The translations under genes and the position numbers were made by a program. The notes under the pieces are model-generated. The model searched no databases. It was not told where the DNA came from and saw only the letters and a list, made by a program, of their open reading frames with translations. Below are positions 9,169-63,718 of a stretch of 64,000 bases of DNA, piece after piece. Source of the DNA: a virus; the IMG/VR virus record IMGVR_UViG_3300045988_141143; one strand, written 5' to 3'. The number at the start of each line of letters is the position of its first letter. Position 1 is the stretch's first letter.

Positions 9169-9184
9169 ACTCTTTCATTTTTTT

Positions 9185-9229
9185 TATTAATAAAAAATAA
9201 GGGTGAGGTGCCCTTATTTAGACACCTCA
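9185..9229 (-). terminator. Rho-independent terminator
   Basis: Hairpin GTGAGGTG(9202-9209)/CACCTCAC(9222-9229) followed on the minus strand by CCTTATTTTTTATT. Confidence 0.4.
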
Positions 9230-10257: not shown

Positions 10258-10281
10258 AATCGTTTGTTTGTTTTAATATTA

Positions 10282-12597
10282 TTATATGTTACTATTAATA
10301 GTCTTTGTATCTGATACGCACACACTACATCCGAATTGTGCCTGTCTGTCTACGTCGTCACGTGTTATAAGACAGTTCCGGCCAATCCCCTCATGCAGCT
10401 TATTCCATACAGCATCATCTTCGGCATCAGCCGATTGTCGCCACCACGACCATGAGCTGTTGCCCACGGTGTCGCTTATGTCCTCGCCATTGCGTAGCAG
10501 CGTTGCCTTCAGCGTCATTTCGCCCGAACCGTTAATCATCACCGTGCCCGTATCGCTCGTTATCATTATCTGATAAGCCACGCCGTCCTCGCCCTTGTCT
10601 CCCTTCTCGCCTTTGCTTCCAGATAGAACTTTTTTCCATTGTGTCGAGCCGTCAGAAGGCTCACCTGTTACGTCCTCCTCTGAATTGGCAACACACACCC
10701 AAACGGCATTATTGTGATTTACTTGGTCGTTCTTATGATAGGTATTTCCTTCTACCCAGTCACCTCTATAATTGATGATATTAATAGTACTGCCGTCATC
10801 CGAAATCAATTCAAAGTGTGAGGAATTGATTTTCGTTCCACCCTTCGGTGAAGTCTCGAATACCGACAGAGATACTTCTTTGTTCTCGCCATTTACGCTT
10901 TTTGTGATAGTATGCTTGTACTCAGAGATATTAGCATAGCAAGCGATACGAGGAGCATAGTCGCCAGTTGTCTCAAGGATAATCACGTTCTGCCTGTCCG
11001 TCTTGTCGTACTCAAGATTGCCATTACGATGTCTGTTGCCGTCCAGCACGATTGTGTCGCCCTCAGCAGGGTCTCCCTTTATCTCAACAGGCGCATTCTT
11101 CTCTGTATATCCGTCTAAGCCTTCGGAATGCTTGCCAACGACAATCCAAGCAAACGCCTGACCATCGTACAATTCCACCTGTTCTTCTCTCGTCTGCTCC
11201 TTACCAGCTTCGTCAAGATAAGTCTCCGTTTTAGTGCCGTATATCTTCTCATTTTGCGTAGATACGCCACCATCAGGAATAGTACGCCAGTAACTCTTAT
11301 TACTTGTATCACTATATGCTCCACCAGCCACAATCTCGCCAATAGTCTGACAGCGCACTTGGTCGCCCTCCTGCCAGTAGTTCATCGTGGCAGTAGTTCC
11401 GTTGTCAGCTAAGAGATAGCATTTCCAGCCAGCGCATTCTGCATCATCCGCAGTTGTTTCTACCCAAGATATAACACCGTCAGCAGATACCGATTCCTTG
11501 ACAGGCACAACTTTGATAAGCTTGCTACCAGCTCCAGATAAATAGATGTTGCCTCCCGAATAAGACAGCTTGCGTACATCTAATTCGTGGAATATCGCCT
11601 TGCCCCAGATGGTGAGGTTCGTAACGAAGGCGTGATATTTTCCGTTATCCTTCTTAACAGCGAAACCCTGCTCTGCTTCGTTGTCGTAGTCGATGGACTG
11701 TAACGACTCAAAGATGGCACGTCCTGCCTCGTCTATCAACGCTCCTCCCTTACCAAAGTAAGCACCTCTGTTCAGCTTTACTAAAGCCTCGCTCACCAGT
11801 CCTTTGATAAAGGTAATCATGCCGTTTACCGTGTCATCATTCTCTTTGGATAAGAAATGGCGTACACCAAACTGCCCAAGGAACTCAGGAGTAACCACTT
11901 TGTTGGCTGACGTATCATCGGTGTTTTCTGTCGCTACGCCAACGATTTTATGTCCATTCAAGAAAAGGGTGGCGATAGTGGCTGTCGCTGCCTTGAGCGT
12001 AGTAAATGCTGCCACAGAGATGGTCTTCAGGAACTTGATGGTGTCGTGTACTGACTCATATCTCCACCACTGACCCTCGCCGCCGGAAGCTATCGCTTCG
12101 TCGGTGGCAAGAGAACCGTATTCCACAGTGAGAGTCCACTCACGATACTTTTCTATGATGTCCTGATCGTTCTCATCCTTACCTACATTTTTGGTCAGGA
12201 CCTCAGAGATTTCTCCTTGCAGATACACATAGTAATAGTCCTCGTTGCCCACCTGCTTGTCCGGAGATGCAATAGACTTACCGTAGATGTCAATGCGCTC
12301 GCTGGGGAATACCACCATTGCCGTACCGTTGACGCCATTGCTGACGCGCGGAATGGCTACGTAAACATACTTAGCCTTTGCATCAGGAAAGAGAGAGGGA
12401 TAAGCCACTAACGGCCAACGCTGATAGTTGTGCCCGGCATCGTAGCCCAGACCCTCAATGTCCTGCATATAGCATAGAATAGAAGCACCACTCGCCACGC
12501 TACACTGGATGTAGTTAGGCTCACCCATTGCGTTGAGTTGGATATAGAGCGCACTGCTCGAAATCCAATAATTCGTAATTTTGACTTCTGTTACCAT
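10282..12597 (-). CDS. Large virion structural protein (tail or baseplate)
   Basis: 771 aa, located in the structural gene run. No catalytic motifs seen. Confidence 0.4.
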   Translation of the reverse strand: MVTEVKITNYWISSSALYIQLNAMGEPNYIQCSVASGASILCYMQDIEGLGYDAGHNYQRWPLVAYPSLFPDAKAKYVYVAIPRVSNGVNGTAMVVFPSERIDIYGKSIASPDKQVGNEDYYYVYLQGEISEVLTKNVGKDENDQDIIEKYREWTLTVEYGSLATDEAIASGGEGQWWRYESVHDTIKFLKTISVAAFTTLKAATATIATLFLNGHKIVGVATENTDDTSANKVVTPEFLGQFGVRHFLSKENDDTVNGMITFIKGLVSEALVKLNRGAYFGKGGALIDEAGRAIFESLQSIDYDNEAEQGFAVKKDNGKYHAFVTNLTIWGKAIFHELDVRKLSYSGGNIYLSGAGSKLIKVVPVKESVSADGVISWVETTADDAECAGWKCYLLADNGTTATMNYWQEGDQVRCQTIGEIVAGGAYSDTSNKSYWRTIPDGGVSTQNEKIYGTKTETYLDEAGKEQTREEQVELYDGQAFAWIVVGKHSEGLDGYTEKNAPVEIKGDPAEGDTIVLDGNRHRNGNLEYDKTDRQNVIILETTGDYAPRIACYANISEYKHTITKSVNGENKEVSLSVFETSPKGGTKINSSHFELISDDGSTINIINYRGDWVEGNTYHKNDQVNHNNAVWVCVANSEEDVTGEPSDGSTQWKKVLSGSKGEKGDKGEDGVAYQIMITSDTGTVMINGSGEMTLKATLLRNGEDISDTVGNSSWSWWRQSADAEDDAVWNKLHEGIGRNCLITRDDVDRQAQFGCSVCVSDTKTINSNI

Positions 12598-13879: not shown

Positions 13880-14128
13880 CTAAGACATTTTCTTCTCTAC
13901 GATAGCTGTCACATCAGACACAAGCTGTAAGTCTTTTGCCTCTTCTGGCGAAATCTTGATATGGAACATGGTTTCGGTCTGAAGAACGAGGTCGAGAAAG
14001 TCAATAGACTCAAGAGCAAGATCATCACGCAGGTTAGCGCTGTCGGTCACTTCTGCTGTCGATGCCCAAGGTGTGCGCAGGCCTTCAACGATATTGAACA
14101 CCCGCTGACGTATATCTTCTTTGTTCAT
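13880..14128 (-). CDS. Acyl carrier protein
   Basis: 82 aa, acidic. DDLALESIDFLDLV resembles the phosphopantetheine-attachment DSL-type motif and helix II. Its start overlaps the ketosynthase stop (ATGA). Confidence 0.65.
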   Translation of the reverse strand: MNKEDIRQRVFNIVEGLRTPWASTAEVTDSANLRDDLALESIDFLDLVLQTETMFHIKISPEEAKDLQLVSDVTAIVEKKMS

Positions 14129-15339
14129 GATGGTTGATATTTAGAGATGATGAATGATGAGTTGGTGCCTCCGAAGCCAAAGGCATTGCAGAGGATATGG
14201 TGTGCTGAGTACTCGCGTGACTGCATGACGAGATTGAGTTTGGGAAAAGCATTCTCGGCTGTGGTAGCCGCACCGAAGACAGTGTCTGTGTTGAGCATCA
14301 TGGATGCTTGAACGGCCTGCGATACACCAGCCATCCAGCACTCGTGCCCCGTCATGCCCTTGGTGGCTACGATATAAGGGCTCTCGGGGAATACCTTTCC
14401 GATGGCTTCTGCCTCTGCAGCATCGCCCAGCTCTGTACCTGTGGCATGGGCAAGGAGTACATCTATCATTCCTGCATCGAGTCCTGCCGATTCTATGGCC
14501 TTAATCATTGCCACTTCTTCCTGATAAGCATCCGGGGTACAGATGTTGGTGCCGTTGGTGGAGAAGCCGCAGCCGGAAAGTTCTGCCACGGGCGAGACTT
14601 CATAATCCTCGAAACGCAAGCTGTCGGAAGGCTCAAGAATGACACAGGCTGCACCACCCGAAGGAGCAAGACCATTGCGGCCTTTGCCGAAGGGCTGCAC
14701 CTTGTCGGGCGAGAAAACGCCCATGGCATCAAACGACAGCATGGAGAAGGGACCTGTCTCCTGTGCGCCAACGACAATCACCATGTCGGTTTGGCGCGTA
14801 TCAAGAAGCATCTTGGCAAGACCGATGGCATGACCTCCTCCGGCACAAGCCCCGCTGACGGTAAGCGAAAGTCCTTTCAGTCCGTAGATAGAGGCGAGAC
14901 TCATGCTGACGGTGGAATTGAGTGTACGGAACACTGCGCCTGCCCCTAAACGTCGGGTGTCGCGCTGTGTAATGGCAGTTGTCATTGCCTGATAGTTGTC
15001 TCCAGCCGTAGTGTCGTTGCTGACGATGACCGATACATTGTGAGACTGCAAGAACTCGGGAAGAATATTGGCTTCCATCAGAGCCTCGTTGACGGCAGAT
15101 AAGGAATATAGGGTCGGTTCGGAAAGACATTGCCGTTGAGCCCTGGTGAGTTCGGATAGCTTCCAAGGGTTCGGGTCATTTATCTTTCCGCACAGGTCGG
15201 ACTGATAACCTTTCTCGCTACGTGCGGGGTCGTGGTGAAGACCGCACTCTCCATACGCCAGCTTCTGTGCGACGGAAAAGGTATCGTTGCCAAGACAGGA
15301 AACGATACCTGTGCCTGTGATTAATATTTTTCTATCCAT
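14125..15339 (-). CDS. Beta-ketoacyl-ACP synthase (KAS I/II-like)
   Basis: SGACAGGGHAIG aligns to the FabF STACTSGVHNIGHA active-site Cys. HATGTELGD and ATKGMTGHECWMAG align to the two catalytic His residues. C-terminal NAFGFGGTNSSFI. Confidence 0.8.
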   Translation of the reverse strand: MDRKILITGTGIVSCLGNDTFSVAQKLAYGECGLHHDPARSEKGYQSDLCGKINDPNPWKLSELTRAQRQCLSEPTLYSLSAVNEALMEANILPEFLQSHNVSVIVSNDTTAGDNYQAMTTAITQRDTRRLGAGAVFRTLNSTVSMSLASIYGLKGLSLTVSGACAGGGHAIGLAKMLLDTRQTDMVIVVGAQETGPFSMLSFDAMGVFSPDKVQPFGKGRNGLAPSGGAACVILEPSDSLRFEDYEVSPVAELSGCGFSTNGTNICTPDAYQEEVAMIKAIESAGLDAGMIDVLLAHATGTELGDAAEAEAIGKVFPESPYIVATKGMTGHECWMAGVSQAVQASMMLNTDTVFGAATTAENAFPKLNLVMQSREYSAHHILCNAFGFGGTNSSFIISKYQPS

Positions 15340-30530: not shown

Positions 30531-31439
30531 TTATCGCATGGCTTCCTCAAGAGTTCTAATATAAGGTATGGCTTCGTTGCGCACAATGTCGAGAAAAAGT
30601 TGTGCTGACCGCTTCATCGGCACGTCCTTCATCCAGTGGGCATTGCTCATCAGGTCGTGCTCAAGCCCAGCGATGGGACGGACGGTAAGGGTGGGGTGAC
30701 TCTTCAGATAAAGTTTAGGCATGAAAGTAACACAATGGGTTTCTTCCACGATGGCAAGGTCTTCGTTGGGGTCGCTCACAATACATTTTACATTCAGTTT
30801 CATCAAGTCGTATCTCAGATATTGCTGGAAGGTATTGAACACCCTTTCGCCTACATCGGGCATAATCACGTTGTGCCTTAACAAATCCTCGTATGACACC
30901 TTTTCCAGTCGGGCCAAAGGATGGGTGTCCCGCATCATCGCATAGATACGGAAAGGAATACAGGGTTCTGACTTGATACCCTCATTCTTGTAGGCAGAGT
31001 TCAGAGTGAAGGCGAGGTCAATGGAGTGGCTTCTCAACAGGTGGTTCAAGTTCGCTGCCTTGGCAAACTCGGCGTTGATTCTCACATTCGGGTATCGCTC
31101 CATGAAGATAAGTGCAGCCATCCGAATGTAAGGTGCGATAAAAGAGCCTACACCTATCCTCAGCTCGCCCACAAGGCAGTTGTTGAGCGCATTGATTTGC
31201 TCCTTGCAGTCATCCGTCTGCTTCAGTATCTCCTTGGCGCGAGGCAAAAGCGCCTCGCCGCTCTCGGTGAGCATGATGCTGTGCGAGGTGCGGATAAGCA
31301 GCTTGCACCTCAGTTCATCCTCAAGAGCCTTGATGTGCTGACTGATGGCGGACTGAGTGACACAACAGCGCGTGGCTGCAATGCTGAAAGATAAAGTTTC
31401 AGCGACATATACAAATGAGCGCAAATGACGAAGTTCCAT
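30531..31439 (-). CDS. LysR-family transcriptional regulator
   Basis: N-terminal HTH MELRHLRSFVYVAETLSFSIAATRCCVTQSAISQHIKALEDEL followed by a LysR substrate-binding-like domain. Confidence 0.75.
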   Translation of the reverse strand: MELRHLRSFVYVAETLSFSIAATRCCVTQSAISQHIKALEDELRCKLLIRTSHSIMLTESGEALLPRAKEILKQTDDCKEQINALNNCLVGELRIGVGSFIAPYIRMAALIFMERYPNVRINAEFAKAANLNHLLRSHSIDLAFTLNSAYKNEGIKSEPCIPFRIYAMMRDTHPLARLEKVSYEDLLRHNVIMPDVGERVFNTFQQYLRYDLMKLNVKCIVSDPNEDLAIVEETHCVTFMPKLYLKSHPTLTVRPIAGLEHDLMSNAHWMKDVPMKRSAQLFLDIVRNEAIPYIRTLEEAMR

Positions 31440-38571: not shown

Positions 38572-39468
38572 TTATATGTCAAACTCATCACAATACTGGC
38601 GCATACGCTCGATGATGATGTTGCGTATCTTCTCACCAATAATCTTGGCATTGGGATGCGGTGTGCCCGTCTTGCCATGATAGCGAAGGTCGAGAATATG
38701 GCTCCAGTCGGAAAGCGTATAGGTATATGCCACAACGGTATAGGTATCGAGAGGCAGAACACCTCGTGCGTCCTGCGGCTTCAAGCCGGACTTCAGAAGT
38801 CGGTTGTAGCCCCACTCGCATACTCGGCATACAAGGCCATAGACCATGCGCTGCCAACGACTGCCTTCTACGTGCCAATGCGGACGTGCTATCTGTACGC
38901 CTCCCTTCTTCTCTAAATAGCAATAGCGTGTGCTCTGTTCGGCGATGCTGTTGGGCGACGTGCGGTTGAGCTCACGCGAGGTACTTATCTGCGTGGTTAC
39001 TACCAGCGTCATGCGGATAATAGAGAATGCCTCCTCGCACTCGTACTTCAGTGCCTTCTCGATAAACTCGTCTTCGCTGACACCATACTGACTAAGCGTA
39101 TTCATTATGTCCTCGTGCTCAAGCGCAAACTGAGTATTGGTACTGAACCATACCTTATGATTCTTGGTGGCATAGTTGATGTAAGGCGATGCCTCCAGAT
39201 ATGCCCAGATGTGGTTAGGAAGACCCCTTTCGTTGGGCATAAAGAAATAGACTGTGCCGTGGCGAAACATCGAGCGATGTCCGCTTTCCCAGAAGCCTTT
39301 GCAGCGTTCCTCGTCACGCTTCTGGATGAAAGTTTTCTCTTCCTCTTCGGTCATTCCTTCTTCGGGCTGCTTGCCCTTTGCCTTGTAGCATATTCTGCCC
39401 ACTCTTGCTATATGTTGTGCAAGAGTAGTCTGCTGCCACCATTCTACTTGTGGTTCGATGAATTTCAT
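38572..39468 (-). CDS. ThyX-fold (FAD-dependent thymidylate synthase-like) protein with a degenerate RHR motif
   Basis: HRSMFRHGTVYFF aligns to ThyX HETPFEHIVFTF. TSRELNRTSPNSIAEQSTRY aligns to RQWFRHRIASYNELSGRY, with RHR replaced by RTS. The C-terminal LDLRYHG region is conserved. Confidence 0.55.
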   Translation of the reverse strand: MKFIEPQVEWWQQTTLAQHIARVGRICYKAKGKQPEEGMTEEEEKTFIQKRDEERCKGFWESGHRSMFRHGTVYFFMPNERGLPNHIWAYLEASPYINYATKNHKVWFSTNTQFALEHEDIMNTLSQYGVSEDEFIEKALKYECEEAFSIIRMTLVVTTQISTSRELNRTSPNSIAEQSTRYCYLEKKGGVQIARPHWHVEGSRWQRMVYGLVCRVCEWGYNRLLKSGLKPQDARGVLPLDTYTVVAYTYTLSDWSHILDLRYHGKTGTPHPNAKIIGEKIRNIIIERMRQYCDEFDI

Positions 39469-39509
39469 TATGGATGAATTTTAATTTGTTATTAAAAGAT
39501 AGTGCATTC

Positions 39510-40016
39510 TCATATTTTCCGAAGTTTACTCAATACTCGTCGCTGCACCTTGTCACACAGACTTTCGAGCGAGCCGTTATTGAAGATTACTGCATCGTAG
39601 AAGAACAAGGACAGAAGATTGCGCTGTTGGTCGCGGTCTAAGCGTTCCTGCGACACCCCTCGGCGCAGTCGAGTTGCTTCCCATGCCGTCACACAAATCT
39701 TGAATAGCTCGATGTCGGGGAATTTCTCGCACAAGGCTTTCAGTCCGTCCTCGTCAATGACGTAAATAGCCTTGTCCGTCACCTGGTCGATGGTGGTCCA
39801 ATACTCATAGCCGCCATACTGGGTGTATGCCAACATCTTGTCGTGCGGTACGTCGCACTTCTCTACAAAATAATGCTGCCAACCGTCAATTTCGCCTTCA
39901 CGCTTCGGACGAGTGGTATAAGAACATATCACTTTATAGCCGCCCATGTCGGACAGCATCTGAGCCACAGTGTCCTTTCCTGCACCACTCGGACCAGTAA
40001 TTGTTATCAGTTTCAT
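39510..40016 (-). CDS. Guanylate-kinase-like P-loop nucleotide kinase
   Basis: GPSGAGKDT Walker A. YTTRPKREGEIDGWQHYFV aligns to guanylate kinase HTTRQPRPGEVHGEHYFFV. Confidence 0.65.
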   Translation of the reverse strand: MKLITITGPSGAGKDTVAQMLSDMGGYKVICSYTTRPKREGEIDGWQHYFVEKCDVPHDKMLAYTQYGGYEYWTTIDQVTDKAIYVIDEDGLKALCEKFPDIELFKICVTAWEATRLRRGVSQERLDRDQQRNLLSLFFYDAVIFNNGSLESLCDKVQRRVLSKLRKI

Positions 40017-40194
40017 ATATTTTTTGTTTGAATTTTAACATTTGAGCAATCAGTAAACAATCAGTAAACAATCAGTAGACATGAAGTAAATACGCATAGG
40101 CTTCACTCTTTGCGAAAATCGGGGCTTTTTTTGCCGTTTTTCGAGTTTTTGATTTAACACTTGTGAAAAAGTGTTTTTATGTGATTACGACCCT

Positions 40195-41280
40195 TTAGCC
40201 ATAGATTTCCTGCATATCCTCCCTCGAAAGTGTTACCTTGGCTCTTTTGCAAAACATGAAAAAAGTATTTGCTCTTACTCTTTCGTATTTTCCGAATGAC
40301 TTCCAAGGAGCCACAAAGTCTGATTCACGGTGTCCGTGGTTGGCATCAAAGGGACGGAAACGAGAAACTCGCTTCCACATATCATAGCCTTCATTCGGAT
40401 CGATACTGTATAAAGACATTCCGCATTTAACCCAGTCATCATAGTTTTCCATAATGTCAACAGCATTCTGCTCTACCTTACGTACAAGGACACGCGCTTT
40501 GCGCAAGATGATGTCGGGTGTATCATTTTCCCAATCACCAGTATAACCCGACCTCTGACCTGACGACGTATTTTCGTAATGCGTAGCAACTTTAGTTACA
40601 GGAATTAGCGATGGCAACACAGCCATATCTTCCAGTCCCTTATACGGCACCACATTTTCATTGATATATATATGTTCGGGATCGTCCCAGGAGGCGAAGC
40701 GCACACGACCGATGTTGCTGCAAGCCTTGTCGAGCATGATGCCGATAGCGGCATATTCTTTGAGCAGAGCTTTGAACTGGTCTTTGTGTCTTTCGGGATA
40801 GGCCAGACGAACCAGACCGAAATAACCAGTACCAGAGCAAGACCGCATCATTAATCCTATCTCAGGACGAAAACGGGCAAGCTTAAATATACTTTCAAAA
40901 TCAGTTATCTGAAGATTGTCCTGCAGATCAATGTCGATGGCGAGCCAGCCCGTGTGCTGTTTCAGGTGGCTCTCTCGTCGGCTCACCATGACACGCTGCC
41001 CTGGATGCGTCAGACTGTCATCTTCATAGAGAGCGAACAAGCCGCTAAGAGTGGCACCAGGTAACATCTTCTTGGTATTGATGTACTCAGGCATTTTCTT
41101 TGCCTTGCTGCCAAATTCCTGACGCATAGCACGAAGACGCTGCACATACGGCTTCCATCTATCCGTAAGACAGAACTCGCGGATGGTCATCTGCTGAATG
41201 CACTCACCCGTCTCGCGGTCTACGAAACGGCCATAAGCATCTTGGGCAGACTCATAAATAGAGCAAACTTCGTCAAACAT
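40195..41280 (-). CDS. Primase-polymerase (AEP-like) domain protein
   Basis: GWLAIDIDLQD (DxD), CSGTGYFGLVRL and NIGRVRFAS resemble archaeo-eukaryotic primase motifs I-III. Adjacent to an iteron-rich region. Confidence 0.45.
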   Translation of the reverse strand: MFDEVCSIYESAQDAYGRFVDRETGECIQQMTIREFCLTDRWKPYVQRLRAMRQEFGSKAKKMPEYINTKKMLPGATLSGLFALYEDDSLTHPGQRVMVSRRESHLKQHTGWLAIDIDLQDNLQITDFESIFKLARFRPEIGLMMRSCSGTGYFGLVRLAYPERHKDQFKALLKEYAAIGIMLDKACSNIGRVRFASWDDPEHIYINENVVPYKGLEDMAVLPSLIPVTKVATHYENTSSGQRSGYTGDWENDTPDIILRKARVLVRKVEQNAVDIMENYDDWVKCGMSLYSIDPNEGYDMWKRVSRFRPFDANHGHRESDFVAPWKSFGKYERVRANTFFMFCKRAKVTLSREDMQEIYG

Positions 41281-51193: not shown

Positions 51194-52044
51194 ATGTTAA
51201 ACGAACAACTGCAGAAAAAGGTAAAACAGTCGATAAAACTCCTGCAGAGTGTGCAGAAGCGATACGACGGCGAGATAGAGATAGCCTACTCGGGCGGTAA
51301 GGACTCCGACGTGATCCTTCAGCTGGCGAAAGAGGCAGGCATCAAGTATCGGGCCATATACAAGAATACGACCATCGACCCGCCAGGCACGTTGGGGCAC
51401 GTCAGAGAAATGGGAGTGGAGATACTGCGGGCCAAGACATCCTTCTTTCATCTCGTGGCACAGAAAGGATTTCCATCTCGCTTTACTCGTTTCTGTTGTG
51501 AAGAACTGAAGGAATACAAGGTGCTCAACAAAAGTATTATCGGCGTGCGCAAGGCTGAGAGCCGGAAACGAAACGAAAGATACAACGAGCCGACAGAGTG
51601 CCGATACTTCGGAAAGAAGAAAGAGGAAAATCACGTAGAACAGATTTATCCTATTCTGGAATGGACCGATGAGGACGTGCGTGACTTCATCATAGACAGA
51701 AAGTTGAAACTCGCACCCATTTATTACAATTCGGGGGGCAAATCGACGTGTCGAAACGTCTTGGCTGTATGTGCTGTCCTCTTGCCTCAAGGCGCAAGCG
51801 CATTATCGAGTTTCAGAAATATCCCAAGATAGCAAAGGCTTATCTCCGTGCGGGGCAACGATTTATGGAAACGCATCCTGACAGCAAGGCGTGCCAGAGG
51901 TACGACAATGTTTACGAATGGTTCGTTCGCGACGTATTTTACAGCTCCAATGCAGATTGGAGCAAGGTAAGCACAGGGCTGTTCGGTAAGCCGGACTTCA
52001 AGAAATTCTTGGAGGACAAGTTCGGTATTGACTTGACATTATAA
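51194..52044 (+). CDS. PAPS-reductase-like (phosphoadenosine phosphosulfate reductase family) protein, frameshifted at a G6 run
   Basis: IAYSGGKDSDV PP-loop motif. The reading frame breaks at GGGGGG (51733-51738). The downstream frame continues with RLGCMCCPLASRRKR, the family's Cys cluster. Confidence 0.55.
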
Positions 52045-52065
52045 ACAACACAAAACAATAACGAT

Positions 52066-52395
52066 ATGGCAAAGATTATTTATTTCGGGACAGAAGGCAA
52101 CGGGCGAGCAGGACACTACCCTATGGGTATCGACAAATACCTTACCCTCGAAGAATGCAAAATATGGACTGAATGTGACAACGAGACGTGGATCAATAAC
52201 ATCTACAAGAATCCCGGTCGTCACTTGATAAAACATCACGGTGTTGTATATACCAACTATGCCGTGCCGTTCTCCGTAGATGATGAAAGGGGTGGGTCGC
52301 ATACTGAAGTATTTTGGGAAGGAATACACTCCGAGGAGGAAATGATAGAGCTTATTAAAAGCAACACTTTCTTGAAAAAACAATTCAAAATGTAA
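52066..52395 (+). CDS. Hypothetical protein
   Basis: 109 aa. Confidence 0.4.
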   Translation: MAKIIYFGTEGNGRAGHYPMGIDKYLTLEECKIWTECDNETWINNIYKNPGRHLIKHHGVVYTNYAVPFSVDDERGGSHTEVFWEGIHSEEEMIELIKSNTFLKKQFKM

Positions 52396-52401
52396 GCGAC
52401 A

Positions 52402-52683
52402 ATGATAACAATAAAAATCAAAACATGGAAGGACTGGAAGAAGGACTTCATCGATTGGGTAAAGGAGCCGCGGCGCAAGACGTGCAAGGAGTATGTGGAC
52501 TATATGGAGGCTTTACAAAAAAATACTCTCTACCAAATAATAGAGGACACTTGTGATAAATACAACAATATGCGTGAGGATCAAATCAAAGACATCACAG
52601 AAGCAGTAGAAAAATGCGTGGCTGCTTGTGCTGAAGAAGCTCGCAAGTTAATCGATGAAAGTCAGCCCGTAAAATTCTTCTAA
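52402..52683 (+). CDS. Hypothetical protein
   Basis: 93 aa. Confidence 0.35.
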   Translation: MITIKIKTWKDWKKDFIDWVKEPRRKTCKEYVDYMEALQKNTLYQIIEDTCDKYNNMREDQIKDITEAVEKCVAACAEEARKLIDESQPVKFF

Positions 52684-52724
52684 GACTGGAACTTTCATTA
52701 TAAGCAACAAAAACTCTACACAAC

Positions 52725-53333
52725 ATGAATAACAACATAAAAAGAAAGGACTGGGTAGGCGGCTCGGCTGCTGTATTCAAGACGTTGGGCGCGAGCAACC
52801 ATACGAATGCGGATAGACAGCGTGAGGATTACTATGCCACTGAGCCGAAGGCTACGGAATGGCTGTGCAAGCTGGAGAGGTTTGAGGGCAGGATTCTTGA
52901 GCCTTCGTGTGGCGAGGGCCACATGAGTAGAGTATTGGAGGCAGCAGGGTATGAGGTGGTGAGCCGCGATCTTGTGGATAGAGGGTACGGCGAAGTTGCC
53001 GACTTTCTCTCTATTGACAATATGGAGTGGGATGGCAATATCGTGACTAATCCACCCTACAAATACGCACAGGAATTTGTGGAGAAGGCTCTAAGCATCA
53101 TTCCCGAAGGAAAGAAGGTGGCGATGTTTCTAAAGCTGACTTTCCTCGAAGGCAAGGGTCGACGCGCTCTCTTCCGTTCTACTCCCCCCATTCGTGTTTG
53201 GGTAAGTTCATCACGACTGAAATGCGCCATGAATGGCGACTTCGAGGCTTACGGCAGCAGCGCCGCGGCTTACGCATGGTTCGTGTGGGAGAAAGGATAT
53301 AAAGGCGAGACAACTGTAAAATGGTTTAACTGA
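52725..53333 (+). CDS. Small N6-adenine DNA methyltransferase
   Basis: Motif I ILEPSCGEGHMS and motif IV IVTNPPYKY. Confidence 0.65.
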   Translation: MNNNIKRKDWVGGSAAVFKTLGASNHTNADRQREDYYATEPKATEWLCKLERFEGRILEPSCGEGHMSRVLEAAGYEVVSRDLVDRGYGEVADFLSIDNMEWDGNIVTNPPYKYAQEFVEKALSIIPEGKKVAMFLKLTFLEGKGRRALFRSTPPIRVWVSSSRLKCAMNGDFEAYGSSAAAYAWFVWEKGYKGETTVKWFN

Positions 53334-55750: not shown

Positions 55751-56395
55751 TTACTTATTTCTTTGTTTACCATGACGATATTTGTGCGTCTTAAAAAGAG
55801 GACGAGTAAGTCTTGCGGAGACTGAGTAATAAGACGGAGTATTGAATACCTCTGCTTTAAATCTTACCGTATAGCCCACCTTCTTTATATAACCGTTGAT
55901 GTGCTTCACATCCTCCATCGTGAGGGTAGCCATTTTGTATGTCTCCCGTAGACGCAAAGACGCATGCCTGCCAATAAGATTACAGAAACCCATCGAATAG
56001 TCACTATATGGTATCGACAAAGTATCGTCTGCCACATAGAGAGTATCAATGTTATTCGACTCGTGTACCAAAAAAGCGTAACACATGACCGTCTTCCCTT
56101 TCTCACAGGGACTTTTCAAAATGGCAATAATATACGTCCCAGGATGTTCGGAATCTAAAAACTTGTAATATATGCCGTTAGCAGCATCATAACGGTCGCG
56201 ATCTCCGAGGGCAGCACTCCCCATACTAAACTCTATATGCTTGTTCCTCTCAACACCACTGCCCTTTGCGGACAACTGACTTATGCGCTGTTCCAGCTCT
56301 TTAATGCTCTTAGCGTGCTCGTCGAGCGTATCTATTACAGACCCCATATTGTCCATCAATGCCTGCAATAGTTTTTCTTTTAATTGTTTACACAT
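55751..56395 (-). CDS. Hypothetical protein
   Basis: 214 aa. Confidence 0.35.
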   Translation of the reverse strand: MCKQLKEKLLQALMDNMGSVIDTLDEHAKSIKELEQRISQLSAKGSGVERNKHIEFSMGSAALGDRDRYDAANGIYYKFLDSEHPGTYIIAILKSPCEKGKTVMCYAFLVHESNNIDTLYVADDTLSIPYSDYSMGFCNLIGRHASLRLRETYKMATLTMEDVKHINGYIKKVGYTVRFKAEVFNTPSYYSVSARLTRPLFKTHKYRHGKQRNK

Positions 56396-56470: not shown

Positions 56471-57142
56471 TTACAAGAACACTGGCAGTCTGCGCCACAC
56501 GCCTCCGTTCGGCTGAAACTCCTCATGCCATTCCCGATATTCCACTTCAAACTTTGCACCATAATAAGCCAAACCTTTGAGAGGTAGGCTCTTGATATAT
56601 TTCTCCTGCTCCTCACGAGTCATAAAGTCGTTAGGCATGAGAATGATGCGATTGCTACGGACATGAATAAAGAACTCTATCGCAAAATTACTATTCGTCA
56701 GCATTCTCTTAATCGCGTCATAGTCCCACTTGCCTTTAGGCGAAAAGTTTATGCCATCCACATAAGGGTAAAAACGTTCGGGAAAGTTGTTTATATCCAC
56801 GTTGGCAAACATCCATCTACCAGAAGTGTAGATATAGAGCTGCTTGATGTTAGGATAATCATGGCGCAGGTGTGAGCATATATCTATGATACCAGTCACA
56901 TAGAATGGGTCTCCACCAGTAAGCATAACAGTATGTGCTGCCTTCAACTCCTCTACAGTTGCCACAGGCACCGTATCGAGGTCGTACTGCTTGTTGCAGT
57001 ACACGGGACAGGAGTTAGTACATGTACGGTTAATAATCAAGTGTATGGCTTCCTTATCGGAGCCCGGCTCGTCAGCATATTTACGTTTTGTTTCCATTAA
57101 CTTTTTCATATCTATATGTATTAGTTTTATTACTTCTAACAA
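56471..57142 (-). CDS. Radical-SAM-like 4Fe-4S protein (NrdG/QueE-like activase size), non-canonical Cys spacing
   Basis: CTNSCPVYC has Cx3Cx3C spacing rather than Cx3Cx2C. Followed by VMLTGGDPF, which resembles the glycine-rich SAM-binding motif. Confidence 0.35.
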   Translation of the reverse strand: MLEVIKLIHIDMKKLMETKRKYADEPGSDKEAIHLIINRTCTNSCPVYCNKQYDLDTVPVATVEELKAAHTVMLTGGDPFYVTGIIDICSHLRHDYPNIKQLYIYTSGRWMFANVDINNFPERFYPYVDGINFSPKGKWDYDAIKRMLTNSNFAIEFFIHVRSNRIILMPNDFMTREEQEKYIKSLPLKGLAYYGAKFEVEYREWHEEFQPNGGVWRRLPVFL

Positions 57143-57259
57143 TATATAAGGCTTTTGCCCTTACAGGGCGCATTACCAATTGCCATTACACCCAGTGCGA
57201 TGCCCTGGGCTAAGAGCTTCTGCCCCCTTCAGGGCGTGCTGATTATATGACCTTTGCCT

Positions 57260-58363
57260 TCAGGGTGTGGTGACTCTGGAGCTGCCCGATGGGTTGTCAG
57301 ATACTTCTTGGCTCTTCTGCTGTTCCTTTACCGCACTGGACGCAGGCTTCTCATAAATATCGAACTTGCGTGTGGTTGGACACCAACTGATTCCGGCGGC
57401 GTGCAGCGCATTGTCTATTGTGATTTCAGTCGCAAGATCGGCTGGAATGATAGACAGAGGAACGCCACCTTGATAGAGGTGGTCGAGATAGATACACGGT
57501 CCAAAGTATATGCCGTTATTAAAACCAATAAAGGTCATGCTGTAATCTAAACCCCTAATGTCTTTGTTTTTCTTTACCATGGAATGCAGGTGGATGGTTC
57601 TGCTCTCCACATCGTAGCAGTTGAAGATAGCTGCATAAGAAGCCAGTCCGCAGCCAGGCCTTGCGTAGGTAAGCTCTACGTACTGACCAGTCTTGAATGC
57701 CGGAAGGAGCTTATAACCTTTACGACTGGAGAAAAGACGACCCGTAAACTTTTCTATTTTACGGTAAAGCTCTCGGGTGTCTTCTTCGTTGAGCTTGCTG
57801 TAGCTATTGACGGAAATCTTACACTTTTCGCCATCCGAGGTCTTGGGGCATTCCTCTATACTCTGAATTTCTGAATATCTGTCCTCAAATACTTCCACCA
57901 GCGGAGTAAAGGTGTTATAATCATCATTGTTTACCTTATCGACAATAAAGAATGGGCCGTCGTATTCGTAAGGACGTCTCACTACCGTGCCCTTGCGCCA
58001 TGTAAGCACGTCCCATTTCGCTTTACTTGGATTGGGATGTATCACGCAGTCGGAACCTAAAAGGTCTGAGATTTCGATGTTTCCTACCTTGAGTTTCAGA
58101 CAGCCCTCCTTATTGAACGTAAGGTAGGCGGTCTTTGGGTCGGCTTTTTTATCGGCGATGGCACAGAAAATCTCGTCATCCGTCACGTCTATCAACGTCA
58201 TCCAACCGCACAGGTCGCACCACACTTGCATTCCTACCCTGCCGTATTGAAACAGAACCTCCTTCACGTTCTCTAAATTTCTCTGGCTCATAATATATAC
58301 ATTTAATAAATTGATTAAACATGCTGTTCTCTTTACTGGTCGCTGTCCGAACATCAACGCCAA
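57260..58363 (-). CDS. Hypothetical protein
   Basis: 367 aa. An alternative start at 58291 (MSQRNLENV) is possible. Confidence 0.35.
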   Translation of the reverse strand: MALMFGQRPVKRTACLINLLNVYIMSQRNLENVKEVLFQYGRVGMQVWCDLCGWMTLIDVTDDEIFCAIADKKADPKTAYLTFNKEGCLKLKVGNIEISDLLGSDCVIHPNPSKAKWDVLTWRKGTVVRRPYEYDGPFFIVDKVNNDDYNTFTPLVEVFEDRYSEIQSIEECPKTSDGEKCKISVNSYSKLNEEDTRELYRKIEKFTGRLFSSRKGYKLLPAFKTGQYVELTYARPGCGLASYAAIFNCYDVESRTIHLHSMVKKNKDIRGLDYSMTFIGFNNGIYFGPCIYLDHLYQGGVPLSIIPADLATEITIDNALHAAGISWCPTTRKFDIYEKPASSAVKEQQKSQEVSDNPSGSSRVTTP

Positions 58364-61306: not shown

Positions 61307-61928
61307 TTACAAATATTCTATCAATGCCATATTATCCTTGCCTACTGACGTAAGGGTGTTGGTTGTACTTCCCCCGTTTATCTCCATTCGCTGACAGAAG
61401 CGTCCGTTGGAGGGATGCTTGCGGTCGGACGGATTGTCGGGGTCACGGCCTCGGAAGGCTGCTATGCGAAAGTGTAGCATAGGAGGTTGTCTTTTGTTAC
61501 TGTTGTTATCGAATTGCTCCACGCCCACGGACTTGGGCGGTGATACTTGTCGCTGTATTTGCACCCTCCCCGGTCGCCATGTTCACGACGGAAGGTTTTG
61601 GCTTCCTCGGTGCGGTAGTGGACGAGGACGGAACGATTAATCATACTCTATCAATATTTTCGGTTTATCCACGTCGTGACCTTTACCTCCCCCGGCTATG
61701 CACAAGGCTATGCCGCGCGGCGACACGATGATGCCGTTCTGCGAGGGGCTGTAGGAGCCGAGGATGATGGGGCGAGGGTTGTTATTCATATATTACAATT
61801 ACGCCAGTGGCTTTGAAATTTGCTCCTTGGGTTGAAACGTCAAGAACATCGTATGCACCCTTCTTGAAATAATTGGCTTTGATAGTGCGTGATGTGCCAT
61901 CGGATTCGGTGTTGAAAGGGAATGTCAT
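61307..61928 (-). pseudogene. Chain of overlapping small ORFs resembling C5-methyltransferase target-recognition-domain fragments
   Basis: Translations include GIIVSPRGIALCIAGGGKG (compare M.HhaI STRGIAITLSAYGGG) and GGSTTNTLTSVGK (TL motif). Stops and starts overlap as ATGAATAA and ATGATTAA. ORFs at 61782-61928, 61637-61789, 61462-61644 and 61307-61564. Confidence 0.3.
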
Positions 61929-62103
61929 AATTCTACTGCTACAAAGAACACGTCGCTGCAATCGGTGCGCGACATGATAGTTACTGCTATACCGTGAAAT
62001 GCTCCGTTGAAGCGTTCTGCGCTGAACATCGAGGCAGGGCAGGTGAGCAAACTACCCCCCAATCATATCAGCTATGATACGGATTACACGGTCGGGTGGA
62101 TTA

Positions 62104-63419
62104 TCAGTTCTCATTCTTCCTCTCCATATTCTCCTTGAACATTTCTCCGAAACCATCCCAATAATGAGCGTCCATCCATTCGGGCGAGGATAAAAACTGC
62201 TCATACATCATTGTCGCAGGTATCGTCCGTAGGTATTTCTCGCAAGCCTTAACGTCTTTGTCCCACAAATCCATCCGCTCCATTTCTATCTGAAAATACG
62301 TCTTGAGGAACATTGCCGCCTCATGTGTCGGTGGCAGGTCGAATTGAAGGAATAAGGCATTGTCGGAGTCGTTTGCCTTGAGGAACTTGCTCACGGCATC
62401 GTCCTTGAGGAAATAGCGGTCAGACACTTCCTCTTCGAGCACGTCTTCCAATCGGGTAAGCAGCTCGAAAGGTTCTGGGAACTGATAGTCGAATGCCACG
62501 TCTCGGCGCATGGAGAGGCAGAACACACGGTCGCGGTTTTGTGGCACACCGTAGTTCTTGGCGTTGAGTCGCGTCCAACGGCTCACATAGCCGAGCGACG
62601 AGAGTTTGTCGAGCCACTTCTGAAAGTCTGGCAAGAACTTCTGGCTTACCAGTGCCGCCACGTTCTCCTGCAAGAGATACTTCGGGCGAAGCACCTCCAC
62701 AGCATCCGCCACACGCCAAAGCAGTGCGCTTCGGGTGTCGCTGCCCTCCTGCAAGCCCATTTGCTTGCCCGCCTGACTGATGTCCTGGCAAGGCGAGGAA
62801 TAGGTGAAGAGGTCTACTTCGCGGCCTTCGAGCGAGCTTTCCACCTCGTGCCAGTCAATCTTGGTGATGTCGCCCAGGGCGCAGTCGGCAAACTGAGGGA
62901 AGACGAGGTTGTGCATCTGACAGGCGTATTTGTCGATGTCGCTCCATCCTATACATGTCCATCGGAAGTCGGGATGCCACTCGCGGAGCACATCGGCTGC
63001 CATAAGCTGCGAGTCGTAGCCGAAGAACGTGGTAAGGAATATCTTCTCCTCGTTCTTGTTGGCTGCGGTGGGCGGCAGGGCGGGTAATGTGTCTTCGAGG
63101 TCGTCGAAGAGCGAGAGTTGCTTTTGCTTACGAGGTTTGGGCGTAGGATAGAAAAGTTGCTCGTAGATGTGGGCCAACACGTCCACCACGATGCTGTTTC
63201 CGGCTTGCTTGTACTGCTGTGAGGCAGATATAGCCATGTCTTCGGGCTTGCCCTTGCCTTTCCAGTCGGGCAGACGTTCGGCTGCTTGAGCATTGCTGCT
63301 CTGCATCGTGCCGATTACATTGTCACGAACGCCATCAGACGAAAACACTCCTTGGGTGTGAGCTTGCGGATGGCATAGCTCTTGATGGTGCGGTCGGTGA
63401 AATTGAGTTTTGTAATCAT
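62104..63419 (-). CDS. DNA (cytosine-5)-methyltransferase with motifs IX-X at the N-terminus and an apparent frameshift
   Basis: Motif IX RKLTPKECFRLMAF lies in an ORF starting at 63419 and ending at 63315. The next frame carries motif X YKQAGNSIVVDVL, then SSPCQDIS (PCQ), LQENVAAL (ENV), QNRDRVF, and a TRD start DVAFDYQFPEP...VSDRYFL. Confidence 0.55.
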
Positions 63420-63432
63420 ATTGTTGCTGTTA

Positions 63433-63585
63433 TTATTCGTATTCTATTAAAATTCCTGGAGCATGATTATCTGCCTTGACGCATCTATTTATTCCTTCTA
63501 ACGGAGGTCTTTTATAGTCAGGCGAAACATTCCAATAAATGCTCGATATTGCATGAGCGTGATAGTCTATTGTGATGTTATTCAT
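63433..63585 (-). CDS. Small ORF (50 aa) ending ILIEYE
   Basis: MNNITIDYHAHAISSIYWNV...PGILIEYE. Its start overlaps the upstream ORF stop (ATGAATAA). Confidence 0.25.
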   Translation of the reverse strand: MNNITIDYHAHAISSIYWNVSPDYKRPPLEGINRCVKADNHAPGILIEYE

Positions 63586-63709
63586 ATTCTTCAATCAAAA
63601 ATACATTTTGCTGCCACGAGTTGATTGTTACGGTCGGGCAAACGTCTGTACCTAATCGACCTCCATCGTTATTGCCACGAGGATATTGGTAGAAGTCAAG
63701 ATTAATCAT
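63578..63709 (-). CDS. Small ORF (43 aa), C5-methyltransferase TRD-like fragment
   Basis: MINLDFYQYPRGNNDGGRLGTDVCPTVTINSWQQNVFLIEEYE. CPTVT resembles the sPTLt TRD motif. Confidence 0.25.
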   Translation of the reverse strand: MINLDFYQYPRGNNDGGRLGTDVCPTVTINSWQQNVFLIEEYE

Positions 63710-63718
63710 ATTCTTCAA

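What the first reader, a model, noticed from the sequence alone, without database searches (positions are those of the whole stretch)
56471..57142. Radical-SAM-like protein with non-canonical Cx3Cx3C cluster spacing in the early region
CTNSCPVYC followed by VMLTGGDPF resembles the activase or QueE-type small radical SAM enzymes (cluster motif plus glycine-rich SAM motif). The spacing between the second and third Cys is 3 rather than 2. No partner (NrdD, QueC/D, DpdA) is recognisable in the window. If functional, it could contribute to a DNA or nucleotide modification or to anaerobic nucleotide reduction alongside the ThyX-like, kinase and MazG module.
Basis: inference. Interest (0 to 1): 0.5.

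Follow-up and report, generated by a model that had tools for sequence, protein, structure and literature searches.

The report
Phage radical-SAM protein, mutated cluster cysteine
The gene encodes a small phage radical-SAM-fold protein from an uncharacterised family also found in crAss001, and its odd Cys spacing comes from one base change that replaced the third iron-sulfur cysteine with tyrosine, so it is a variant allele and not a new type of cluster motif.

Summary
A minus-strand ORF (56471..57142; probable ATG start at 57109, 212 aa) contains CTNSCPVYC followed by VMLTGGDPF.

The protein belongs to a large family of about 180-210 aa proteins found almost only in phages. crAss001 gp56, annotated "HxsC-like", is a member. 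The AlphaFold model (pLDDT 89.8) matches only radical SAM enzymes among its top structural hits.

The family consensus is the canonical CX3CX2C followed by an extra, nearly invariant Cys (CX3CX2CC-N). None of more than 250 relatives has CX3CX3C. The closest relatives read CPVCC, and the window reads CPVYC through a single TGC>TAC change. The same allele is 100% identical in three independently assembled contigs, so it is not an assembly error.

In this about 100 kb gut-phage lineage, 20 of 68 protein clusters have lost a canonical Cys. Outside the lineage about 1% have.

I found no NrdD, glycyl-radical, QueC/D or Hxs partner in the window or in nearly all of the rest of a related genome. Across several phage lineages the gene sits in replication and recombination modules.

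The biochemical function is unknown. Either the neighbouring Cys38 takes over as the third ligand, or this allele is defective in cluster binding. Interest is modest.

The parts
56471..57109 (-). Coding sequence of the 212-aa radical-SAM-fold protein. ATG at 57109, stop at 56471-56473. The maximal ORF from TTG reaches 57142.
56996..57022 (-). Cluster-loop motif C30-x3-C34-x2-Y37-C38. The codons are TGT ACT AAC TCC TGT CCC GTG TAC TGC.
   Evidence: Read directly from the sequence. Relatives have TGC or TGT at codon 37. The family consensus is CX3CX2CC.
56999..57001 (-). Codon 37, TAC (Tyr), where relatives have TGC or TGT (Cys). The changed base is plus-strand position 57000.
   Evidence: Codon alignment with L009, L007, L010 and L018. 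The allele is 100% identical in L087, L088 and L089.
56903..56920 (-). T64-G-G-D-P-F69, the GGE-type SAM-binding motif on predicted strand beta2.
   Evidence: T64, G65 and P68 are 100% conserved and G66 99% across 140 relatives outside the window's lineage. Strand E60-64 is in the AF2 model. The motif aligns to the GGEP motif of MoaA and AbmM.
56474..56506 (-). C-terminal family signature G-G-V-W-R-R-L-P-V-F-L. It forms the last strand of the model and carries two conserved arginines.
   Evidence: R206 and R207 are invariant in alignment A1. [FW]RR[LI] is seen at the C-terminus of most family representatives. Strand E204-207 is in the model.
55751..56395 (-). Downstream 214-aa gene with no recognisable family. 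It is syntenic with the radical SAM gene within this phage lineage only.
   Evidence: The order [343 aa]-[212 aa]-[214 aa]-TerL (convergent) recurs. It has no Pfam or PHROG hit. It is not conserved next to the family in other lineages.
57260..58363 (-). Upstream gene (367-aa maximal ORF, called as 343 aa in relatives) with no recognisable family. It is syntenic within the lineage only.

Best explanation
The ORF encodes a 212-aa member of a phage-restricted family of minimal radical-SAM-fold proteins, the family of crAss001 gp56. In that family the loop after strand beta1 carries the canonical three-Cys motif followed at once by a fourth, nearly invariant Cys and an Asn (C-x3-C-x2-C-C-N). Strand beta2 carries the GGE-type SAM motif.

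In this phage strain one G>A transition (TGC>TAC) replaced the third canonical ligand, Cys37, with Tyr. That leaves C30, C34 and the extra C38, which reads as Cx3Cx3C. The unusual spacing is therefore a derived point variant of a canonical motif.

**Inferred mechanism of the family.** A site-differentiated [4Fe-4S] cluster on the three Cys binds and reductively cleaves SAM. The enzyme acts on a substrate that is not encoded next to it, probably a host or nucleic-acid/nucleotide-related one, because the gene sits in replication/recombination/nucleotide modules of several unrelated phage groups.

**Inferred state of this allele.** The canonical site is broken. A cluster can form only if the adjacent Cys38 serves as the third ligand. 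Relatives in this about 100 kb gut-phage lineage have repeatedly lost canonical cysteines that cannot be rescued this way. I therefore judge this allele more likely to be weakened or inactive for radical chemistry, in a lineage where that chemistry is dispensable or decaying, than to be a purpose-built non-canonical enzyme.
For: **Shown**
- Family: 113 clusters and 785 representatives. 59 of 93 members hit PF04055 and 46 of 93 hit Fer4_12. crAss001 gp56 matches the family profile with probability 100% and E 2e-44.
- Motif: 134 of the 146 best representatives have CX3CX2CC, 3 have CX3CX2C, and none has CX3CX3C. Outside the window's lineage C30, C34 and C37 are 99% conserved and C38 97% (n=140).
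- Point change: the closest relatives read CPVCC (P0001, 93% identity). The codons are GTT TGC TGC in L009 against GTG TAC TGC in the window.
- Real allele: the exact protein is on 7 contigs, and ENA ERZ28594631, SRR3993044 and SRR3993002 are 100% identical to the window.
- Lineage erosion: 20 of 68 clusters have lost at least one canonical Cys, for example C30R with C34F or C34R, and P0053 with C34N plus C37P. One relative has a frameshifted gene (L027). The TGG[ED]P motif and most other invariant residues are kept, and dN/dS is 0.2-0.3.
- Context: SNF2 helicase, SSB, NinB, an O-like initiator and a RecE-like exonuclease are nearby in other lineages. ThyX, PNK and DNA polymerase are nearby in crAss001. 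RecT, a resolvase and a methyltransferase are nearby in PV4-TP1.

**Inferred**
- Cluster binding, SAM cleavage, the class of substrate, and the functional effect of Y37.
Against: - No biochemical data exist for any family member.
- The window protein itself misses the Pfam threshold (PF04055 E 0.15, 12.6 against 29.5 bits). Superfamily membership therefore rests on the fold and on relatives.
- Coordinates of the model are not available, so the geometry of C30, C34 and C38 could not be measured.
- Cys38 is 97% conserved and directly adjacent. Tandem cysteines back each other up in the radical SAM enzyme Dph2 (PMC11048331). The allele may therefore be fully functional.
- dN/dS below 1 argues against simple pseudogenisation.
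- The tree with the motif columns masked suggests mosaic alleles. This weakens the dN/dS argument in both directions.
Confidence: 0.7

Rival explanations
1. Functional ligand swap. Cys38, the family's conserved fourth Cys, coordinates the cluster in place of Cys37, so this allele is an active radical SAM enzyme with a working Cx3Cx3C site.
For: - C38 is 97% conserved outside the lineage and adjacent to C37.
- A few relatives lack C38 but keep C37 (CPLCY in P0041, P0046 and P0065; CPFCR in L008). Each member of the doublet can therefore be lost singly.
- The ORF is intact, the SAM motif is intact, and dN/dS against canonical relatives is 0.26.
- Tandem Cys residues act cooperatively in Dph2 (PMC11048331).
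Against: - No other sequence among more than 250 relatives uses this arrangement.
- The same lineage tolerates loss of C30 and C34, which no neighbouring Cys can replace.
- All copies of the allele found are 100% identical, so it may be very recent and not yet tested by selection.
Confidence: 0.3
2. The family is an NrdG-type or glycyl-radical-enzyme activase that activates the host's anaerobic ribonucleotide reductase, or another host glycyl radical enzyme, to boost dNTP supply.
For: - The size (180-212 aa) and motif pattern (C-x3-C-x2-C-x-N-K, [ST]GG[DE]P, Y-x-Y-T-S-G, V-D-G) resemble NrdG.
- There are weak hits to TIGR02491/TIGR02495 in 24-28 of 93 members, to PHROG 626 at E 0.0098, and to Fer4_12 in 46 of 93.
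- JGI names one relative 'organic radical activating enzyme'.
- The hosts are likely anaerobic Bacteroidota. The closest genome hit is binned as Prevotella, and crAss001 and LoVEphage infect Bacteroides.
Against: - The window protein scores 13.8 bits against a 126.1-bit cut-off.
- HxsC and MoaA models are hit by more members than the NrdG models.
- There is no NrdD, Gly_radical or PFL Pfam hit in the window or in the rest of a related genome, and no RVxG[YFW] motif in real ORFs.
- crAss001 carries a B12-dependent class II reductase and no NrdD.
- The conserved C-terminal RR strand is not an NrdG feature.
Confidence: 0.15
3. It is a QueE-like enzyme of a 7-deazaguanine DNA-modification pathway.
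For: - 3 of 93 members give weak QueE hits.
- DNA methyltransferases and a PAPS-reductase-like gene lie within 5 kb.
Against: - The window protein gives no QueE hit.
- No QueC, QueD, FolE or TGT/DpdA family appears in the window or in the rest of the related genome.
- The gene's neighbours differ between lineages.
Confidence: 0.03
4. It is an HxsC-type peptide maturase, or a phage counter-measure to the bacterial HXS defence system.
For: - crAss001, LoVEphage and PV4-TP1 homologues are annotated 'HxsC-like'.
- 80 of 93 family members weakly hit TIGR03977, with a best E-value of 1.4e-9.
Against: - HxsC has a second Fe-S domain (C342/C345) and works with HxsA, HxsB and HxsD in a fixed four-gene locus (PMC13128918).
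- This protein ends at residue 212 with no second Cys cluster.
- No second radical SAM gene or Hxs partner is nearby.
- The window protein gives no TIGR03977 hit even at E up to 10.
Confidence: 0.05
5. The tyrosine is a sequencing or assembly artefact, or the cysteines are zinc ligands of an unrelated fold.
For: A single-base difference from relatives is what an error would look like.
Against: - The identical allele occurs in assemblies of at least two different runs plus an ENA assembly.
- The fold is unambiguously a radical SAM partial barrel.
Confidence: 0.03

Closest known systems
crAss001 gp56 and its homologues in LoVEphage and Phocaeicola phage PV4-TP1, annotated 'HxsC-like His-Xaa-Ser system radical SAM maturase' and functionally uncharacterised
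   Same: They belong to the same protein family (hhalign probability 100%, E 2e-44; tblastn 25-27% identity). They share the size class, the CCN motif, the TGGEP motif, the Y-x-Y-T-S motif and the C-terminal FRR motif. They sit in the DNA and nucleotide metabolism region of the phage genome.
   Different: Those proteins have the canonical CX3CX2CC, while the window has Tyr at the third Cys. The window's lineage carries about 30 extra residues (N-terminal extension and inserts). The neighbouring genes are unrelated.
NrdG / COG0602-type small activases (TIGR02491, Fer4_12)
   Same: They are minimal radical SAM cores of about 150-210 aa with the cluster motif followed by x-N-K. The GG[DE]P and downstream beta3/beta4 motifs are similar. 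There are weak profile hits.
   Different: Scores are far below the family cut-off. No phage NrdD is present. The C-terminal GGVWRRLP strand is specific to this family. Other models (HxsC, MoaA) are hit at least as often.
Viperin, MoaA and EpeE radical SAM cores (PDB 5vsl, 1tv7, 8ai1)
   Different: Those enzymes are 260-340 aa and have C-terminal substrate-binding extensions or second clusters that are absent here. Sequence identity is 12-16%.
HxsC of the HXS antiphage system (PMC13128918)
   Same: The N-terminal radical SAM core gives the most frequent NCBIfam hit for family members (80 of 93).
   Different: HxsC has a second Fe-S domain and obligatory HxsA, HxsB and HxsD partners. None of these is present here.
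Tandem-cysteine cluster motifs in Dph1-Dph2 (PMC11048331)
   Same: A Cys adjacent to a cluster ligand is conserved. Single loss is tolerated and double loss is not. This is the precedent for Cys38 backing up Cys37.
   Different: The fold and the cluster motif are unrelated, since Dph2 is a non-canonical radical SAM enzyme. No experiment has been done on this family.

Membership tests
Radical SAM superfamily | Partial (beta/alpha)6 TIM-barrel core | tested here: met
Radical SAM superfamily | Three-Cys CX3CX2C motif in the loop after beta1 | tested here: not met
   The window has C30-x3-C34-x3-C38, with Tyr at the third canonical position. The family consensus does meet the feature: 137 of 146 representatives have CX3CX2C.
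Radical SAM superfamily | GGE-type SAM-binding motif on beta2 | tested here: met
   TGGDPF at residues 64-69 is invariant or nearly invariant across relatives. It aligns to the GGEP motif of MoaA and AbmM.
Radical SAM superfamily | Pfam PF04055 above the gathering score | tested here: not met
   The window protein scores E 0.15 and 12.6 bits against a 29.5-bit cut-off. 59 of 93 relatives match at E up to 0.01, with a best E-value of 1.1e-9. Several relatives carry a precomputed PF04055 hit.
Radical SAM superfamily | [4Fe-4S] binding and reductive cleavage of SAM | not testable with these tools
   This needs anaerobic biochemistry. The model coordinates could not be inspected for Cys geometry.
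NrdG (class III RNR activase) | TIGR02491 or TIGR02495 above the curated cut-off | tested here: not met
   The window protein scores 13.8 bits against a 126.1-bit cut-off. Only 24-28 of 93 relatives give weak hits.
NrdG (class III RNR activase) | Cognate NrdD or other glycyl radical enzyme encoded with it | tested here: not met
   There is no NRDD, Gly_radical or PFL Pfam hit in the window or in about 36 kb of the related genome outside the window. No Gly-radical motif is present. crAss001 has only a class II RNR. A host-encoded target cannot be excluded.
QueE (7-carboxy-7-deazaguanine synthase) | QueE model hit and co-occurring QueC/QueD/FolE/TGT-DpdA genes | tested here: not met
   The window protein gives no QueE hit, and 3 of 93 relatives give weak hits. 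No pathway genes were found.
HxsC (His-Xaa-Ser system maturase) | Second, C-terminal Fe-S domain, with a protein of about 350 aa or more | tested here: not met
   The protein is 212 aa with no C-terminal Cys motif. HxsC mutants C342A/C345A define the second cluster (PMC13128918).
HxsC (His-Xaa-Ser system maturase) | hxsD-hxsB-hxsC-hxsA gene neighbourhood | tested here: not met
   No second radical SAM gene or other recognisable partner is in the window or the related genome. The immediate neighbours have no family hits.
Phage minimal radical-SAM family of crAss001 gp56 (PHROG 31524 region) | Full-length similarity with the signature motifs H-L-x5-C-x3-C-x2-C-C-N, TGG[ED]P, Y-x-Y-T-S, G-x3-P-K, S-N-R and [FW]-R-R | tested here: met
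   E 1e-136 to 1e-19 against 113 clusters. phrog_31524 matches at E 2.2e-5 over residues 33-208. The profile matches crAss001 gp56 at E 2e-44. All motifs are present except the third Cys.

The most novel reading that the evidence does not exclude
In this lineage of about 100 kb human-gut phages the radical-SAM-fold protein may be evolving away from the canonical cluster site while keeping its fold and SAM motif. Two routes fit the data.
- **Rewired ligation.** The cluster could be held by the tandem Cys38 or by newly acquired cysteines at positions 94, 98 and 102.
- **Cluster-independent protein.** It could be a pseudoenzyme, for example a SAM-binding protein.

The window's Cx3Cx3C allele would then be one of several natural experiments in rewiring or abandoning a radical SAM cluster.
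Probability: 0.2. Interest if true: 0.6.

Novelty: new member of a known kind. Interest (0 to 1): 0.3.

Why it matters
For this finding alone, the unusual Cys spacing is explained by one base change, so it should not be catalogued as a new radical SAM cluster motif.

More broadly, the family is widespread in human-gut phages (crAss-like phages, LoVEphage and about 100 kb siphovirus-like phages). It is one of the smallest radical SAM cores known. It is almost entirely phage-restricted and has no known substrate, so working out its chemistry would fill a recurrent blank in gut-phage early regions.

The repeated loss of cluster cysteines in one lineage, with the ORF and the SAM motif kept intact, offers a cheap test of whether the cluster is needed for the protein's role during infection.

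Tried and rejected
- **Direct family scans of the window protein.** Pfam, NCBIfam and PHROG gave only sub-threshold hits. PDB sequence searches with the close-relative profile were not significant.
- **Megablast of the region against the phage collection.** No match.
- **The search for related loci with the broad alignment A2.** It failed because no stretch was conserved enough.
- **The afdb50 fold library.** It was not available.
- **A conserved neighbour or partner.** Across 84 loci and 11 sequence clades, no gene keeps a fixed position next to the family.
- **A phage-encoded glycyl radical enzyme, deazaguanine pathway or Hxs partner.**
  - Pfam and PHROG scans of 49 further window ORFs found none.
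  - Scans of 43 ORFs from the part of related contig IMGVR_UViG_3300045988_151591 that lies outside the window found none. About 2.4 kb of that contig was not retrieved.
  - A regex for RVxG[YFW] hit only an antisense ORF.
- **Look-up of an 85-aa end-of-window ORF to extend the contig.** The protein is not on record.
- **Promoter and terminator scans around the gene.** Counts were at chance level.
- **Literature.** Searches found no functional study of crAss001 gp56, the LoVEphage homologue, or any Cx3Cx3C radical SAM family.
- **dN/dS as a test of constraint after Cys loss.** It was computed (0.30). I give it little weight because degenerate-motif alleles are scattered in the tree with the motif masked, which suggests recombination.
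- **Cys-Cys distances in the model.** They could not be measured because coordinates are not exposed.

Full report
**1. Observation**

The minus strand of 56471..57142 holds an ORF of 223 codons from a TTG. Relatives and public gene calls start at the ATG at 57109, giving 212 aa. In that numbering the protein reads ...H23-L-I-I-N-R-T-C30-T-N-S-C34-P-V-Y37-C38-N-K-Q-Y... and then ...V-M-L-T64-G-G-D-P-F69.

**2. Family**

- The window protein alone is barely recognised by curated libraries: PF04055 E 0.15, TIGR02491 NrdG E 0.041, phrog_31524 (unknown function) E 2.2e-5.
- It has 113 homologous 90%-identity clusters of about 208-212 aa, mostly on 50-107 kb metagenomic contigs.
- A profile of 26 of them finds 785 50%-identity representatives in a 1.84-billion-protein library, typically 170-210 aa.
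- Translated search of cultured and annotated phages finds crAss001 gp56, many crAss001-like isolates, LoVEphage and Phocaeicola phage PV4-TP1. In these the gene is annotated "HxsC-like His-Xaa-Ser system radical SAM maturase".
- The family profile matches crAss001 gp56 with hhalign probability 100% and E 2e-44.
- When 93 diverse members are scanned one by one, 59 hit PF04055 and 46 hit Fer4_12. 80 give weak hits to TIGR03977 (HxsC), 57 to MoaA, 24-28 to NrdG models and 7 to prokaryotic viperin.
- The family profile reaches MoaA (E 7.9e-6) and viperin-like enzymes (4.7e-5) among solved structures.
- A scan of one genome per prokaryotic species finds only seven loci. All are on 59-135 kb MAG contigs that look like binned phage genomes, and the closest is binned as Prevotella. 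With the narrow search patterns used, the family is essentially phage-restricted.

**3. Fold**

An AlphaFold2 model built on 26 sequences is confident (mean pLDDT 89.8, pTM 0.87). Only the N-terminus and the Cys loop are weaker, with the block at residues 31-40 averaging 65. The model shows six beta-alpha units plus a final strand.

**4. The motif**

- Nearly every close relative reads C-x3-C-x2-C-C-N.
- Among the 146 best distant representatives, 134 have CX3CX2CC, 3 have CX3CX2C, and none has CX3CX3C. The remaining 9 are mostly fragments lacking the N-terminus.
- Outside the window's own lineage C30, C34 and C37 are 99% conserved and C38 97% (n=140).
- The nearest relative (P0001, 93% identity) reads CTNSCPVCC, and the window reads CTNSCPVYC.
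- At the DNA level L009 has GTT TGC TGC where the window has GTG TAC TGC. The tyrosine is one G>A transition on the coding strand, at plus-strand position 57000.

The Cx3Cx3C spacing therefore exists only because the family has an extra Cys directly after the third ligand.

**5. The allele is real**

The exact 212-aa protein is in public collections (DAU81178.1, "MAG TPA: hypothetical protein [Caudoviricetes sp.]") on seven contigs. An ENA scaffold of 102,463 bp and contigs assembled from runs SRR3993044 and SRR3993002 are 100% identical to the window over 6.6, 3.6 and 1.6 kb. This excludes an assembly artefact. It also means that only one strain carrying the allele has been seen.

**6. The lineage**

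The window belongs to a group of about 95-102 kb gut phages. They have a 1983-aa tape-measure-like protein, and a 664-aa terminase gene converges on the end of the operon that holds the radical SAM gene.

- Within this group 20 of 68 protein clusters have lost at least one canonical Cys.
  - A common allele type has C30>R with C34 kept, >F or >R (R[GS]SI[CFR]PFCC). Some of these clusters have 100-190 member sequences.
  - One cluster has C34>N and C37>P.
  - The window has C37>Y.
- Three clusters and one IMG/VR locus have instead lost C38 (CY, CR).
- One relative has the gene split by a frameshift (L027).
- These proteins stay full-length and keep TGG[ED]P and most other family-invariant residues. 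The number of violations does not differ from canonical relatives (Mann-Whitney p=0.2).
- Pairwise dN/dS is about 0.20 among canonical pairs, 0.30 among degenerate pairs and 0.26 for the window against canonical relatives.
- In a tree built with the motif columns masked, the degenerate alleles are not monophyletic. This suggests mosaic recombination, so the dN/dS of degenerate pairs is weak evidence for constraint after the loss.
- The R-type alleles are enriched for extra cysteines at positions 94, 98 and 102. The C98-x3-C102 segment also occurs in three canonical proteins, so I cannot tell linkage from compensation.

**7. Partners and context**

- No Pfam or PHROG family of class III ribonucleotide reductase, glycyl radical enzymes, the QueC/QueD/FolE/TGT pathway, or a second radical SAM enzyme appears among the window's ORFs.
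- I walked a related 100.6 kb contig (83% identical radical SAM protein, 99% identical methyltransferase) to recover the roughly 36 kb not covered by the window. That stretch encodes a ParA-like ATPase, a DnaN clamp, YopX and HTH regulators, and no partner. About 2.4 kb was not retrieved.
- No glycyl-radical motif occurs in real ORFs.
- crAss001 encodes a B12-dependent class II reductase and no NrdD.
- The immediate neighbours (343/367 aa upstream, 214 aa downstream) have no family hits and are conserved only within the lineage.
- Across 84 loci in 11 sequence clades no neighbour keeps a fixed position.
- What recurs is the type of module:
  - SNF2 helicase, SSB, NinB, an O-like initiator and a RecE-like exonuclease in other lineages.
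  - ThyX, PNK, PRTase and DNA polymerase in crAss001.
  - RecT, a resolvase and a DNA methyltransferase in PV4-TP1.
- In the window itself ThyX (38572..39468), guanylate kinase (39510..40016) and a primase-like gene lie 16-18 kb away, beyond the tape-measure gene. The gene is not part of that module here.

**8. Mechanism**

*Shown:* a radical SAM fold, a SAM-motif, a family-wide canonical cluster motif, and a point substitution of the third ligand in this allele.

*Inferred from established radical SAM enzymology:* canonical family members bind a [4Fe-4S] cluster through C30, C34 and C37, bind SAM at the unique iron and the GGE motif, and generate a 5'-deoxyadenosyl radical. The substrate is unknown. 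The very small core, the absence of a dedicated partner gene and the module context point to a host-supplied or nucleic-acid/nucleotide-related substrate. The conserved basic residues (K125, R154, R192, R206, R207) fit an anionic substrate, but I could not place them in space.

For the window allele there are two readings.
- **(a) Cys38 replaces Cys37 as ligand.** This is plausible because the residue is adjacent and conserved, and because tandem cysteines cooperate in Dph2 (PMC11048331).
- **(b) The allele is impaired.** I lean towards this reading, at roughly 0.5 against 0.3. The same lineage tolerates losses of C30 and C34 that no neighbouring Cys can rescue, and the allele is seen only in one clonal strain.

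**9. Comparison with known families**

- It works like a minimal activase/QueE/viperin-type radical SAM core but is a member of none of them.
  - NrdG and QueE model scores are far below cut-off and their partners are absent.
  - HxsC proper has a second Fe-S domain and a fixed HxsD-B-C-A locus (PMC13128918), neither of which is present.
  - Viperin, MoaA and EpeE have C-terminal domains that are missing here.
- It is a member of the uncharacterised phage family typified by crAss001 gp56.
- I found no described radical SAM family with a Cx3Cx3C motif in the searchable literature.

**10. Verdict**

The gene is real and the radical-SAM reading is right. The feature that made it look special is a strain-level Cys>Tyr substitution in a canonical motif. 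I rate it a new member (variant allele) of a known but uncharacterised kind, of modest interest. The more interesting by-product is the repeated erosion of the cluster motif in this phage lineage while the ORF stays intact. That is testable but unexplained.

Noticed in passing
Relatives of window 56471..57109: P0023, P0032, P0043-45, P0049-51, P0053-58, P0060-64; loci L014, L020, L022-L024, L053: About 29% of protein clusters in this phage lineage have lost one or two canonical cluster cysteines (C30>R; C34>F, R or N; C37>P). They stay full-length and keep the SAM motif. Outside the lineage the cysteines are 99% conserved.
   Followed up: partly
Same relatives, residues 94, 98 and 102 (region Y-x-Y-T-S-G-x-E-M-x-C): The degenerate-motif alleles are enriched for extra cysteines. 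Y94C is in 8 of 9 RF-type alleles, and C102 is in 16 of 18 R-type against 3 of 45 fully canonical (CCCC) proteins. Some form a new C98-x3-C102 pair. That pair also exists in three canonical proteins, so compensation and linkage cannot be told apart.
   Followed up: partly
L027 7893..8626 (IMGVR_UViG_3300045988_101454): The radical SAM gene is split into two ORFs (132 and 113 aa) by a frameshift in one relative.
   Followed up: no
L044 and L045, 6484..7119 and 7995..8612: Some about 110 kb relatives carry two full-length paralogues of the family about 0.9 kb apart. Both have the canonical CX3CX2CC motif.
   Followed up: no
window 14125..15339 (-) and 30531..31439 (-): A beta-ketoacyl synthase (PF00109 7.7e-26, PF02801 5.8e-20) and a LysR-type regulator (PF03466 2.1e-28) are encoded inside the phage genome. 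The 16-24 kb stretch is richer in G+C (0.52-0.55 against about 0.46).
   Followed up: no
window 61637..63718 (-): The 414-codon cytosine-5 methyltransferase ORF (62104..63348) begins with a motif-X-like segment (QYKQAGNSIVV). It is flanked by four short ORFs that all end in ...IEY[ED]. This looks like a fragmented or multi-part methyltransferase region.
   Followed up: no
window 51194..53333 (+); L002 (PV4-TP1) 6658..11591: A PAPS-reductase-like gene and DNA methyltransferases lie within a few kb of the radical SAM gene, both in the window and in the unrelated Phocaeicola phage PV4-TP1.
   Followed up: no
window 57143..57259: The intergenic region upstream of the gene contains short G+C-rich hairpin-like repeats. 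CCYTWCAGGG occurs twice here and nowhere else in the window, against 0.23 expected by chance.
   Followed up: partly
L259 918..1787 and other ORFs of IMGVR_UViG_3300045988_151591: The part of a related genome outside the window encodes a ParA-like ATPase (AAA_31, 1.4e-34) and a DnaN sliding clamp. No integrase domain appeared in the Pfam scans. This may mean a plasmid-like prophage lifestyle.
   Followed up: no
window 38572..41280 (-): ThyX (PF02511 5.9e-20), guanylate kinase and a primase-like protein (BT4734-like_N, PriCT_2) lie directly downstream of the 1983-aa tape-measure-like gene. That is an unusual place for nucleotide-metabolism genes.
   Followed up: no
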